Assembly (NCBI RefSeq): GCF_027921745.1
Contig: NC_079238.1
Coordinates: 1 to 64,000 of the forward strand
Length of the DNA stretch: 64,000 nucleotides
Direction of reading: 5' to 3'
Source of the DNA: Schizosaccharomyces osmophilus
Taxonomy: Eukaryota
Below, in pieces: positions 42,315 through 52,955 of this stretch. Within the stretch, counting starts at the first letter, position 1, and the number at the start of each line of letters is the position of its first letter. A model generated the notes under the pieces. The model had not been told where the DNA came from, did no database searches, and saw nothing but the letters and a program-made list of their open reading frames with translations. Both the position numbers and the translations under genes were made by a program.

Positions 42315-43127
42315 ATGGGTGAAGAATCACAAATGCAAGGTGAAAATTTGTTAGCCCACGATGAGTATTTGTATACGAATGAATATGGTATCCCTCCTCC
42401 AAGACAGGAGAACGTTACGGAATTAAGTCGCTATTTAAATGATTTAAGAAATGCCCTCAATGAGAAAAATTATTTTTTCCAGAGGCATGAGTTGGAACAA
42501 AGCCTTGAACGAATTGCTTTACGAAACCGAGAAATGAATGTTCAAAACGAAGAGTATGAAAGAACTGTCATTCATTTTACAAATAATATGCGTGCACTTG
42601 AACAATTACGTGCGATCGAAAGCCGCTTGAACCACTACAGAAATGAAGAGGAAACAAATAACAGTCAACCTCCACAATGGTTTGTCAATTTTTTAAATGA
42701 TCCTAATGGTGGGTTCCTCTCTCTGAAACAGGGAGTAGGTTCCCTAAGGCAGGAAGTAGGTTCCATAAGGCAGGAAGTGGTCTTAATGGAACAACGACAA
42801 AATTTGCGATTCGATGGAATAGATCAAAAGCTGAATAAACAGGAGTATCGATACTATAGATTGCACAACATTCAGATGAGGTCTTTAGGGAAATCGATTG
42901 ATATTGTTCCATATTTAAATGGTCAATTACCGGACATTGATTTACCGCGAATTTATTCAATTGAAGATATAGAGAGGTTAACAAAAGACCAATGTACTAG
43001 GTATCTCAACGGTTACGGAATTCGATTTGGGCCGAACGAGACGATAAAGTTGAAAGAGCGTATTCGTGATGCCGTTGGGTTACACTCTGTTACAGATGCC
43101 GAGTTTCGTTTTTCTGGGTTTCACTAG
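42315..43127 (+). CDS. Mug135/Tdk1-like protein (coiled-coil stalk plus Mug135-C/DUF1773-like domain), copy A
   Basis: PPQWF motif, heptad repeats, VPYLNG..LPRIYSIEDIERLT..C..YL.GYGI......LKERIRDAVG. Confidence 0.85.
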   Translation: MGEESQMQGENLLAHDEYLYTNEYGIPPPRQENVTELSRYLNDLRNALNEKNYFFQRHELEQSLERIALRNREMNVQNEEYERTVIHFTNNMRALEQLRAIESRLNHYRNEEETNNSQPPQWFVNFLNDPNGGFLSLKQGVGSLRQEVGSIRQEVVLMEQRQNLRFDGIDQKLNKQEYRYYRLHNIQMRSLGKSIDIVPYLNGQLPDIDLPRIYSIEDIERLTKDQCTRYLNGYGIRFGPNETIKLKERIRDAVGLHSVTDAEFRFSGFH

Positions 43128-43681
43128 ATGTTTCTTATTTTATTTTTAGTAAAAAACCCCGATTGGGAGAAGCTTTTCGAGCGTATCGAGTCATTCTTTA
43201 ATTAAAGCATGAATTTATTAATTCGCATGATTATTATATTGTATGGCATTTTTTAATTCTGCGTGACAGTACAATCAATCGGAGGAACTCTGAAATCGTA
43301 ACATGCTACGAGGCAAAGTATCTGTAGCGGTATTATAGTGAAAGACAAACTAAAATCAAAGAAAGATCAGTAAAGTATTATTACTTAAAGTTTCTCTCTT
43401 TACCTCCAAGCTTCTGGATTACCACATAAGTACTAACTGTTACAATGCAAAATCTTCCTAATCGAAGATTTTGTAGTCCGAACTAACTTGCTCGTTCTGT
43501 AGCATCCCATTGGTATTACTAAAGACGTTACTATAATAGGCCTTTCCAAATAACACATTATTGTCCAATGTTTTATAATGCTTATTTGCAAAGGGGTGAA
43601 AAGGTTAGAAGAAGTGGTTTTGTAAAAGTAACTACTAAATCTTTGGATATGTATGTGTGAACGATCCTGTGATACTGTACC

Positions 43682-44030
43682 TGTCACAACTGTATTAAGT
43701 TAAGACAGAGTGTATGGTTTTGAAGGTTGAATGAGTTGTAGTTGTATAGATTGCAATCCACTAAATGTGTTCTATACATGTTTGCAGGGTCCAGTTACTT
43801 GAGTAGCTAAATTAACGACGACTCGAATTATCAAGCCAGATCAGTCGAATCTTCCAATCTGAAGATTTGTACTTCCAACCGGAGATATATAAATATCTTC
43901 TAAAGTAGATATCATTGTTCCTTCTGATACAGTTTGTTTACAATTTGTAATAAAGGGATACTTTTGTATTATTTACCGTAATCCGATAAGTGTATCAAGA
44001 GAATAGTAATATCGTAATTGGATTATGACA
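43682..44030 (+). mobile_element. Solo LTR of a second, diverged subfamily
   Basis: TGTCACAAC...ATTATGACA; shared ATCTTCCAATCTGAAGATTT core; TATATAAATA at 43886. Confidence 0.8.
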
Positions 44031-44263
44031 GACGGAGGCCACACTTTCGAGGTGTTGAACATCGTTAAAGTCTAACGTGGTTGACAGCATCCTTATTCTA
44101 CCCTCTTCTATCCATTTGACTGTTCGTAAACACAGCGCCATCATAACTGAAAGCAAATGCCAAAGTTCTTTCGGTTTGTCTAATAAGTTGCTTCAATAAA
44201 CTAATTCTAATTCTCTTTAAACCTTGCTTTCGTTTTTTTTTTCATTGTTTGGGCCCAAAAAAA

Positions 44264-45043
44264 ATGAACCAAGATTTGTTTTCAAACCCATTTGGAATTG
44301 CTCCACCGTCTAACGATTCTTTTGCAGCGCTCTCAAAGTTTACATATGAATTCGCAGAGGCGATTCCCCAAGATAGATTTGATTCATTCAAAAGTAAACT
44401 GGCGAGCCTTCACAAAGCAGTTACTTCTAAACTAGAAGGAGGAGAGACTCGTCCACGAGATGACATGTCTGAAGTTCGACGGATACTTCAGGAGCTTAGG
44501 GAAGGGCAATCCGAGCTTAGGGAAGGGCAATCCGAGCTTAGGGAAGGACAAACCAATCTCAGAGAAGAGATGATCCAAGGAATATCGAGGTTGGAAGGAC
44601 GAGTTGACTCTTTTGCTAACGATTTCCGGTCAAACAACGCTGAAACTTTTTCACGCATGAATCGAAATGAAAACAGAATTAACATGACAAGATCTTCATC
44701 GCAGAGATCTGAAAACATTATTAACAGAGTTGCGGCCAAGAACACAAAACCAATTCCGTTTGTTAATGGACAAGAACCTCCAAATGACTTGCCTGAGTTA
44801 CTAAATATCTCCGACGTTGACAGTTTGAATTTAAACCAATTGAAAACGTACGTGAAGGGTTATGACCAGAGCTTTGATGAGAATGAGCCTCAAGCATCTC
44901 TTAAAAGAAAGCTTGCTGATTATTCTGGATTTATCACACCACAAGAAAGTTTGTATGAGTTTTCTGAAGGCAATGAAACCCTTCGAGATGTAGGGAATAT
45001 AAATAGTACACCAAGCCTAAGGCGGACGTCTCGTCGTCATTGA
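44264..45043 (+). CDS. Diverged Mug135/Tdk1-like protein with 21-bp ELREGQS repeats, copy B
   Basis: NPFGIAPP (cf. NEYGIPPP), coiled coil, IPFVNG..P..LPEL.NISDVD.L....LK.YV.GY. Confidence 0.8.
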   Translation: MNQDLFSNPFGIAPPSNDSFAALSKFTYEFAEAIPQDRFDSFKSKLASLHKAVTSKLEGGETRPRDDMSEVRRILQELREGQSELREGQSELREGQTNLREEMIQGISRLEGRVDSFANDFRSNNAETFSRMNRNENRINMTRSSSQRSENIINRVAAKNTKPIPFVNGQEPPNDLPELLNISDVDSLNLNQLKTYVKGYDQSFDENEPQASLKRKLADYSGFITPQESLYEFSEGNETLRDVGNINSTPSLRRTSRRH

Positions 45044-50925: not shown

Positions 50926-51044
50926 GTCTACGGCCACACCTAGGCGAAAACACCAGTTCCCGTCCGATCACTGCAGTTAAGCGTCTGAGGGCCTCGTTAG
51001 TACTATGGTTGGAGACAACATGGGAATCCGGGGTGCTGTAGGTT
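50926..51044 (+). rRNA. 5S rRNA gene
   Basis: Same sequence as 19126-19244 except the 3' end GTAGGTT. Confidence 0.95.
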
Positions 51045-51504
51045 TTTTTCTTTTTCTATTCCTTCTCTTTTTATTTTATACTCTCTTTTGGCACATTTTT
51101 AAGTCATATGGGATACAACGTGATGTTTCAAATTTTGTTGATGCAAACTAGTACTATCCATATGGTTGGTCCACTTCATTAGATTGGGTAGAGAGAGGAG
51201 CGTATTAACTATGAGAAGCGATGAATGTTTTTCTTATTTTTTATGAAATACAATTCACTCTTTTCAATAAAATTTTTTTAGGCAGACACTGGGCTTGTTT
51301 TCAACTTTTACAGGCATTCCGTGAAACAAAAACCACATACAACGAAACAGAGGTACTTGCCTTTTTGATTTCCTTATCTTATATTAGTTTCTTACAGCAC
51401 TTATAAAACTTCTACTTCTACTTCTACTCAAACTCCTCCTCTCTCTTCCACCGGCTTTTTCGTGCTTTGTTTACATTTTGTGTAAAACATTTTTTTTTAG
51501 TATT

Positions 51505-51900
51505 TGTCACAGGATGAATCTCACTCGTTATGAGAATAAGTATTCAGTGAAAAAGATGTATGTAATAACAATTCAATAAATTGTATGTTTGACTTAAATT
51601 GGATGCTTTGGTACTACTTGAATTGAATAGCAATAGCTCCCAGGGATCTGATTCACTAACAAAGTGTTATGAACAATCTATTTAGCTAGATCAGTCAAAT
51701 CTTCCTATCTGAAGAGTTGAGCTCTCAATTAGAGGTATACATATATTTCTAGGATTAGTCAGCTTCTAGATAACTTTAGTTCTAAATTTATAAAATTTTT
51801 AATCGCAAAAATGAACATTTACTTTTTGTAATAACAAATTCGATAATACAATGTGTTTACTGTATCAAAATATTAGTAATATCGTATACCAGTTATGACA
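51505..51900 (+). mobile_element. Solo LTR followed by the terminus of an opposite-orientation LTR (to 51940)
   Basis: TGTCACAGG...GTTATGACA then ..GTGAGACTTTGCCAGTGACA. Confidence 0.9.
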
Positions 51901-52121
51901 ATAACTTGTTTTTATACCAAGTGAGACTTTGCCAGTGACATTAGCTATGTACTATCAAATTATGAACTTATTTACGGTGCTAACCCTTCAATTCGTTACA
52001 AATCTGTATATGCATTTACCAAATACCAACTACCAACAACAAAGAATTCCGAAAAGTGAATTGATGCTCTGACTCTTTACATAAACCAGGAAATTTTTTA
52101 TTTTTTTATTTATTTAATAAA

Positions 52122-52955
52122 ATGGGTGAAGAATCACAAATGCAAGGTGAAAATTTGTTAGCCCACGATGAGTATTTGTATACGAATGAATATGGTATCC
52201 CTCCTCCAAGACAGGAGAACGTTACGGAATTAAGTCGCTATTTAAATGATTTAAGAAATGCCCTCAATGAGAAAAATTATTTTTTCCAGAGGCATGAGTT
52301 GGAACAAAGCCTTGAACGAATTGCTTTACGAAACCGAGAAATGAATGTTCAAAACGAAGAGTATGAAAGAACTGTCATTCATTTTACAAATAATATGCGT
52401 GCACTTGAACAATTACGTGCGATCGAAAGCCGCTTGAACCACTACAGAAATGAAGAGGAAACAAATAACAGTCAACCTCCACAATGGTTTGTCAATTTTT
52501 TAAATGATCCTAATGGTGGGTTCCTCTCTCTGAAACAGGGAGTAGGTTCCCTAAGGCAGGAAGTAGGTTCCCTAAGGCAGGAAGTAGGTTCCATAAGGCA
52601 GGAAGTGGTCTTAATGGAACAACGACAAAATTTGCGATTCGATGGAATAGATCAAAAGCTGAATAAACAGGAGTATCGATACTATAGATTGCACAACATT
52701 CAGATGAGGTCTTTAGGGAAATCGATTGATATTGTTCCATATTTAAATGGTCAATTACCGGACATTGATTTACCGCGAATTTATTCAATTGAAGATATAG
52801 AGAGGTTAACAAAAGACCAATGTACTAGGTATCTCAACGGTTACGGAATTCGATTTGGGCCGAACGAGACGATAAAGTTGAAAGAGCGTATTCGTGATGC
52901 CGTTGGGTTACACTCTGTTACAGATGCCGAGTTTCGTTTTTCTGCATTCTACTAA
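52122..52955 (+). CDS. Mug135/Tdk1-like protein, copy C; near-identical to copy A with one extra heptad
   Basis: Identical protein except an extra GSLRQEV and the last three residues. Confidence 0.85.
   Translation: MGEESQMQGENLLAHDEYLYTNEYGIPPPRQENVTELSRYLNDLRNALNEKNYFFQRHELEQSLERIALRNREMNVQNEEYERTVIHFTNNMRALEQLRAIESRLNHYRNEEETNNSQPPQWFVNFLNDPNGGFLSLKQGVGSLRQEVGSLRQEVGSIRQEVVLMEQRQNLRFDGIDQKLNKQEYRYYRLHNIQMRSLGKSIDIVPYLNGQLPDIDLPRIYSIEDIERLTKDQCTRYLNGYGIRFGPNETIKLKERIRDAVGLHSVTDAEFRFSAFY

What the first reader, a model, noticed from the sequence alone, without database searches (positions are those of the whole stretch)
42315..52955. Cluster of three Mug135/Tdk1-like genes: candidate killer meiotic drivers
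Seen: 42315, 44264 and 52122 share an N-terminal (Y/F)GIxPP motif, a coiled coil with independently expanded 21-bp repeats (GSLRQEV; ELREGQS) and a Mug135-C-like domain. Established, as I recall: S. pombe tdk1 (mug135) is a single-gene toxin-antidote spore killer with this stalk plus C-terminal domain layout. A Mei4-type FLEX core GTAAACA lies at 44126. Inference: two diverged driver or suppressor specificities amplifying in a subtelomere.
Basis: partly seen in the sequence, partly recalled or inferred. Interest (0 to 1): 0.8.

Follow-up and report, generated by a model that had tools for sequence, protein, structure and literature searches.

The report
Known tdk genes that failed drive
These three intact yeast genes are already-published members of a family of offspring-killing selfish genes, and in published test crosses in a related yeast none of them cheated inheritance, so they are likely spent killers, two of which may still protect against related ones.

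Summary
The three ORFs (42315-43127, 44264-45043, 52122-52955) carry Pfam Mug135_C above cut-off and match the Tdk1 structures. Their coordinates are exactly those of S. osmophilus tdk301, tdk302 and tdk303 in a 2025 preprint. 'Active drivers' is therefore not supported, with the caveat that only one foreign promoter in a foreign host was tried. A and C are one near-identical pair, 60% identical to the active driver Tdk203. B is only 20% identical to A and lacks the linker PP of the active drivers. The FLEX core is present but no more than chance. Most likely these are non-killing leftovers, with A/C possibly still antidotes (untested). One small addition, not found in my searches: a solo LTR sits just upstream of all three genes, and of 5 of 15 tdk loci in this genome. 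The scan's earlier notes held no tdk finding.

The parts
42315..43127 (+). Copy A = tdk301 (SOMG_00017), 270 aa: Z-domain start YGIPPP, linker PPQW (119), stalk with 2 heptad repeats, Mug135_C (184-256)
   Evidence: 82:79 transmission
44264..45043 (+). Copy B = tdk302 (SOMG_00018), 259 aa: FGIAPP start, no linker PPxW, 3 heptad repeats, Mug135_C (160-222), basic C-terminal tail
   Evidence: 42:44 transmission
52122..52955 (+). Copy C = tdk303 (SOMG_00021), 277 aa: identical to A except one extra heptad and two of the last three residues (GFH in A, AFY in C)
   Evidence: 48:48 transmission
42163..43116 (+). Block shared with 51973-52944 (about 150 bp of promoter plus nearly all of the coding sequence); 1 mismatch, one 3-bp and one 21-bp indel
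   Evidence: about twice the neighbouring contig depth in runs X1 and X2
41757..42150 (.). Solo LTR (TGTCA...TGACA, 394 bp) with a perfect 5-bp target duplication, inserted in the end of an older LTR that starts at 41414; ends 164 bp before A
   Evidence: published LTR midpoints 41953 and 41582
43682..44030 (.). Degenerate LTR upstream of B
   Evidence: published midpoint 43905
51505..51900 (.). Solo LTR upstream of C, no matching target duplication, about 91% identical to the LTR before A
   Evidence: published midpoint 51702
44126..44132 (+). GTAAACA FLEX core 138 bp before B; chance-level
45543..45666 (+). Degenerate 5S rRNA gene, 500 bp after B
   Evidence: Rfam RF00001 72.7 bits
50926..51044 (+). 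5S rRNA gene, 1.1 kb before C
   Evidence: Rfam RF00001 103.6 bits
48131..50238 (-). Bystander genes between B and C: But2-family gene (48131-48613) and hsp16-like gene (49807-50238)
52985..53027 (+). 43-base A run 29 bases after the stop of C

Best explanation
[quoted passage not shown] In active members one protein forms a toxic assembly in all spores and a fresh, non-toxic form dismantles it only in carriers (shown for Tdk1 in print, not for these genes). A and C keep the whole layout and are 60% identical to the active Tdk203. They would most likely have lost killing but kept self-type recognition, and so would act, if at all, as antidote-only copies against tdk203-like drivers (inferred by analogy, untested). 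B belongs to another lineage, lacks the linker PP and would recognise only its own kin (inferred). A and C arose by a recent local duplication or gene conversion in a repeat-rich subtelomere (near-identity shown, mechanism inferred).
For: Exact coordinate match to the preprint's table. Tetrads in S. pombe under P.tdk1: 82:79, 42:44, 48:48, against 75:38 for tdk203 and 43:2 for tdk210 in the same assay. The 95% upper bounds of the carrier share are 0.589, 0.599 and 0.604. The preprint found drive in 2 of 21 homologues tested, including none of its S. osmophilus genes. The closer Tdk203 relatives tdk304 and tdk605 stay inactive even under P.adh1. Precedent for non-killing resistance: tdk1 HT3, and Tdk11 and the reconstructed tdk315 protect against tdk210. 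A against RefSeq Tdk203: 62 of 72 identical in the Mug135 domain and 25 of 31 in the Z-domain, higher overall than the 51% of the protecting Tdk11/Tdk210 pair. 49 of 93 family loci are pseudogenes.
Against: The negative comes from one preprint, one foreign promoter and a foreign host. tdk203 was weaker under P.tdk1 (75:38) than under P.adh1 (56:3), and tdk11 showed 51:54 under P.tdk1 but 98:84 under P.adh1. The searched supplements list only P.tdk1 strains for tdk301-303. The interval for tdk203 (0.569-0.75) overlaps the upper bounds for these genes. All three ORFs are intact and A/C was copied recently, which a live selfish gene would also show. No resistance test is reported for these genes in what I read, so the antidote step has no direct evidence.
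Confidence: 0.6

Rival explanations
1. One or more of the genes is a cryptic active driver that needs its own promoter, a higher dose or an S. osmophilus host factor; A/C and B would then be mutually incompatible drivers.
For: Intact ORFs. A/C group with active Tdk203 (UFBoot 100) and keep the linker PP and the residue matching Tdk203 E320. Drive is dose-dependent, and the authors warn that heterologous tests can fail. Recent A/C duplication.
Against: Mendelian ratios for all three. S. cryophilus drivers work in S. pombe and their self-killing forms work in S. cerevisiae, so host factors of the tdk203 type are conserved. Closer tdk203 relatives are inactive at high dose. B lacks the linker PP. 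FLEX site is chance-level.
Confidence: 0.18
2. The copies have lost both killing and protection and are neutral passengers of subtelomeric duplication that have not yet picked up a stop codon (or, for the B lineage, serve an unrelated host role).
For: The window is a mosaic of recent duplications of ordinary genes too: hsp16 three times, hsp16+5S block 91% identical, gst twice. Over half of the family loci are pseudogenes. No drive was reported for any tested S. osmophilus gene, B and its relative tdk313 included.
Against: A and RefSeq Tdk203 keep 62 of 72 residues in the Mug135 domain against 60% overall, which suggests constraint at least in the past. I ran no dN/dS test.
Confidence: 0.2
3. 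A and C are one gene duplicated by an assembly error.
For: 1 mismatch in 974 columns; an A run beside C.
Against: In runs X1 and X2 contigs over the shared block have about twice the depth of the neighbours (266-355 against 130-151; 14.6-18.8 against 6.5-9.1), and both different 3' ends are present. These runs are one sample and may be the assembly's own. The upstream LTRs differ by 9%, and both genes were cloned and crossed separately.
Confidence: 0.02

Closest known systems
S. osmophilus tdk301, tdk302, tdk303 (SOMG_00017, 00018, 00021; Zhang et al. preprint, PMC12930445)
   Same: These are the same genes: start, end, strand and length match exactly. Tested for drive, all negative.
   Different: Nothing in the genes. 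The main text has no mention of LTR, rDNA or gene conversion.
S. cryophilus tdk203 (SPOG_05700), active Bdf1-independent driver
   Same: A/C share the Z-domain, linker PPQW, stalk and Mug135 domain; 60% identity to the RefSeq form; same clade.
   Different: A/C show no drive in the same assay. They are shorter (270/277 aa against 342 aa for the corrected gene) with a different repeat unit. B is only 18.5% identical.
S. pombe tdk1/mug135 (PDB 9ja5, 9ja6; PMC11551426, PMC11551393)
   Same: Same domain order and fold of the C-terminal region (phmmer E 1e-27 for A and 7e-14 for B; Foldseek probability 1.00 for A).
   Different: 24-25% identity in the preprint. Tdk1 kills through Bdf1 and is Mei4-induced; the Bdf1-binding region is reported as poorly conserved in Tdk203 and I did not test it for these genes.
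Non-killing resistant alleles: tdk1 HT3, tdk11, reconstructed tdk315
   Same: Intact family members without (or with marginal) killing.
   Different: Resistance was shown for those; it is untested for tdk301-303.
wtf drivers (PMC9562144)
   Same: Multi-copy fission-yeast driver family beside solo LTRs or 5S genes, with conversion and repeat changes.
   Different: Unrelated protein; wtf makes poison and antidote from two transcripts.

Membership tests
tdk gene family | IPR013902 / PF08593 C-terminal domain | tested here: met
   71.1, 50.1, 71.0 bits, cut-off 23.8
tdk gene family | Sequence and fold homology to Tdk1 | tested here: met
   phmmer for A and B; Foldseek top hits 9ja5 and 9ja6 for the model of A, mean pLDDT 56.9
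tdk gene family | Listed as intact member in the family inventory | tested here: met
   Supplementary Data 1, exact coordinates, no pseudogene flag
tdk gene family | N-terminal Z-shaped domain | tested here: inconclusive
   A matches the Tdk203 Z-domain at 25 of 31 and B aligns at its start; the model is low-confidence there (pLDDT 32-59), so the shape was not shown
tdk gene family | Helical stalk before the C-terminal domain | tested here: inconclusive
   Heptad repeats in all three; helices 134-164 and 175-190 in the model of A, the first at pLDDT under 50
active tdk drivers (tdk1, tdk203, tdk210) | Linker PP motif between the two halves: copies A and C | tested here: met
   PPQW at 119; PPAW in Tdk1, PPLW in the protein taken as Tdk210
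active tdk drivers (tdk1, tdk203, tdk210) | Linker PP motif between the two halves: copy B | tested here: not met
   No linker PPxW in B or in 5 of its 5 full-length relatives; the one PPSW in P0039 lies inside the C-terminal domain
active tdk drivers (tdk1, tdk203, tdk210) | Kills non-carrier progeny in a hemizygous cross | not testable with these tools
   Published result is negative in S. pombe under P.tdk1: 82:79, 42:44, 48:48
resistant (antidote-only) tdk alleles | Protects carriers against a cognate driver and binds it | not testable with these tools
   No such test for these genes in the text and supplements I read
tdk1 type | Mei4/FLEX-driven meiotic induction | tested here: inconclusive
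   Core before B, reverse-strand cores before C, none before A; 14-21% of random 300-bp stretches hold one
tdk1 type | Bdf1 binding | not tested
   Reported absent for Tdk203, the closest active relative of A/C

The most novel reading that the evidence does not exclude
At least one lineage is a live driver or guard in its own host, and S. osmophilus tdk genes spread at solo LTRs as wtf genes do in S. pombe (an LTR lies 359-466 bp upstream of 5 of 15 loci). A and C, which differ by one stalk heptad and two C-terminal residues, would then be a natural pair for testing whether repeat number creates incompatibility, a question the preprint leaves open.
Probability: 0.13. Interest if true: 0.5.

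Novelty: already known. Interest (0 to 1): 0.15.

Why it matters
As it stands, little. The genes are named, placed on a tree and tested in print. What value remains is as reagents. A/C are close non-driving relatives of an active driver, so a cross to tdk203 would test whether drivers decay through an antidote-only stage across species. The one-heptad difference between A and C bears on the open question of repeat-driven incompatibility. The LTR neighbourhood may explain how the family moves among chromosome ends.

Tried and rejected
FLEX core as evidence of meiotic control: rejected as chance-level. Old paralogue overwritten by gene conversion: the stops of A and C are in register, but the 3' flanks align no better than shuffles (939 of 1000 and 182 of 1000 shuffles reach the score under two scorings), so conversion and fresh duplication cannot be told apart. 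LTR carried along with the A/C duplication: not supported, since the two LTRs are 91% identical, within the 82-93% range of all 10 LTR pairs compared, and the LTR before A has its own target duplication. C as a retrocopy of A because of the A run: not supported, as the 3' ends differ. Tdk1 trimer-interface positions as an explanation of inactivity: A has Ala where Tdk1 has E346, but the active Tdk203 and Tdk210 also lack Glu there (alignment), so it does not discriminate. Expression: no RNA holder listed; contigs of run X3 lie mostly on coding stretches, but the run is on record as 'DNA?', so I draw nothing from it. The published tree file was cut and unreadable, so I built my own from 31 sequences: 12 aligned plus 19 of the 150 listed hits; deep branches are unsupported (UFBoot 11-51). 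No whole genome is held, so the other tdk loci could not be read. The broken membrane-protein gene at about 46030-46780 gave no Pfam hit above cut-off and no Atlas hit for one piece; the other piece got no answer. No complex prediction was run: its controls cannot separate paralogues.
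Full report
Observation. The three ORFs exist as described: A 42315-43127 (270 aa), B 44264-45043 (259 aa) and C 52122-52955 (277 aa), all on +. Each has Pfam Mug135_C above the curated cut-off (71.1, 50.1, 71.0 bits against 23.8). A and B match the S. pombe Tdk1 cryo-EM chains by sequence (E 1.2e-27 and 7.1e-14). A low-confidence model of A (mean pLDDT 56.9) has those two chains as its only 2 matches with E under 0.001 among 102 listed at E up to 10. The 21-bp repeats are present with 2.4, 2.9 and 3.4 copies, with unrelated units in A/C and in B. 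The window starts in telomeric repeats, so the cluster is 42-53 kb from a chromosome end.

Identity. Close relatives are all Schizosaccharomyces proteins. A paper search found a 2025 preprint on the tdk family (PMC12930445). Its Supplementary Data 1 lists S. osmophilus chr1 tdk301 42315-43127, tdk302 44264-45043 and tdk303 52122-52955, all intact. These are the window's coordinates to the base, and the genome paper's gene table agrees. The finding is therefore already known.

Function in print. The preprint placed each coding sequence under the tdk1 promoter at ade6 in S. pombe and dissected hemizygous crosses. Viable carrier to non-carrier counts were 82:79 for tdk301 (161 of 168 viable), 48:48 for tdk303 (96 of 96) and 42:44 for tdk302 (86 of 96), against 75:38 for tdk203 and 43:2 for tdk210. 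My exact intervals cap the carrier share at 0.589, 0.604 and 0.599. Its limits: one preprint, a foreign host and one promoter. Drive is dose-dependent; tdk203 rose to 56:3 and tdk11 went from 51:54 to 98:84 under P.adh1, and the supplement search showed only P.tdk1 strains for the three genes. Against a dose artefact, tdk304 and tdk605, which the preprint calls close relatives of tdk203, stayed inactive under P.adh1.

Anatomy and relationships. A and C share a block from about 150 bp upstream to three codons before the stop, with 1 mismatch and 24 gap columns in 974. In two public runs of one sample the block has about twice the neighbouring contig depth and both 3' ends are present. That argues against an assembly error, though the sample may be the assembly's own and contig depth is a poor measure of copy number. 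In my domain tree (31 sequences) A/C group with RefSeq Tdk203 and three other proteins at UFBoot 100, and B groups with four S. cryophilus proteins and tdk313 at 100; deeper branches are unsupported. The preprint puts tdk301 and tdk303 in clade D. Placing B in clade B is my inference, since the figure is not held. A is 60% identical to RefSeq Tdk203 (an incompletely assembled 279-aa form), with 62 of 72 in the Mug135 domain and 25 of 31 in the Z-domain; A and B are 20% identical. A/C keep the linker PP motif of the active drivers; B and its five full-length relatives lack it.

FLEX and repeats. GTAAACA is at 44126, 138 bp before B (tdk1 has one at 116 bp). But the window holds 30 copies, more than the 13 expected from shuffles, so the word is common here. 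14% of random 300-bp stretches hold one, A has none within 500 bp, and tdk203 and tdk210 lack Mei4 sites. The Tdk1 repeat region is dispensable for drive. The preprint notes the repeats and leaves their role in incompatibility open.

Mechanism. For Tdk1, an autoinhibited tetramer converts in spores into a toxic assembly that disrupts mitosis after germination, and newly made protein dismantles it in carriers. Protection tracks self-type binding, and members can lose killing but keep protection: HT3, Tdk11 and the reconstructed tdk315. My best reading (0.6) is that the three genes are non-killing. A/C are more similar to Tdk203 than the protecting Tdk11 is to Tdk210 (51%), so they likely still act as antidote-type copies, and B would recognise only its own lineage. 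The non-killing part rests on published data in S. pombe; the antidote part is analogy. Rivals: cryptic native drive (0.18), fully neutral passengers (0.2), assembly error (0.02).

A small addition. Each gene has an LTR just upstream, with ends of the type described for Tosmo elements and matching published midpoints. Combining the 75 midpoints readable in that figure with the 15 tdk loci, 5 of 15 loci have an LTR midpoint 359-466 bp upstream, against 1 of 19 other ORFs in the window (Fisher p 0.003, or 0.014 counting A/C once). The five are not independent and all lie within about 70 kb of a contig end where LTRs are dense, so the genome-wide p is not to be trusted. The LTR before A has its own perfect target duplication and sits inside an older LTR's end, and it is no closer to C's LTR than other pairs are. 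That fits repeated insertion near these promoters better than LTR-carried copying. The preprint's main text has 0 hits for LTR, and two searches showed no paper making this link (listings only). Figures and unread supplement parts may still show it.

What I read. PMC12930445: main text parts 1-5 and 8 of 8, passages, and supplements 1 (part 1 of 3), 2 (whole), 4 (cut), 6 (part 4 of 5), 7 (part 1 of 2) plus a search of all seven. PMC11551426: parts 1-3 of 8 and passages. PMC11551393 and PMC9562144: passages only. PMC10085805: passages, two supplement searches and one supplement part. Gene names for P0031, P0033, P0051 and P0053 are inferred from lengths and alignments. The scan's earlier notes held nothing on this genome and no tdk finding.

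Verdict. Real, correctly assigned to family, already named and already tested negative for drive. Novelty: already known. Interest 0.15.

Noticed in passing
window 41414-42162, 43682-44030, 51505-51900: A solo or degenerate LTR lies just upstream of each tdk gene; the one before A has a perfect target duplication and is nested in an older LTR. 5 of 15 published tdk loci of this genome have an LTR midpoint within 470 bp upstream.
   Followed up: partly
window about 46030-46780, minus strand: Broken, hydrophobic reading frames beside the degenerate 5S gene; related copies at lower identity appear in public contigs. Not in the gene list between SOMG_00018 and 00019, no Pfam hit. Could be a wag-like or other subtelomeric pseudogene; untested.
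   Followed up: partly
window 52985-53027: A run of 43 A begins 29 bases after the stop of C; origin unexplained.
   Followed up: partly
window 17859-19296 and 49682-51089: A 1.4-kb hsp16 + 5S block is duplicated at 91% identity; a third hsp16 copy lies at 13755-14186.
   Followed up: no
window 19126, 27538, 45543, 50926: Four dispersed 5S rRNA genes, all on +; the one at 45543 is degenerate.
   Followed up: no
window 1-260 and 7072-9933: Telomeric array of mixed 9- and 11-bp units, as described for this species, followed by a helicase gene that I take, from recall, to be of the telomere-linked RecQ type (one search shows DEAD and Helicase_C only).
   Followed up: partly
window 36264-41039: Long Ser/Thr-rich repetitive cell-surface gene split into two ORFs (36264-37751 and 38025-41039); may be a frameshift or an assembly slip in the repeats.
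   Followed up: no
window 24327-24959, minus strand: 210-aa ORF without any Pfam match, next to an LTR at about 23796-24200.
   Followed up: partly
window 27870-28485: A broken second copy of the glutathione S-transferase gene at 53594-54310, 74-81% identical.
   Followed up: no
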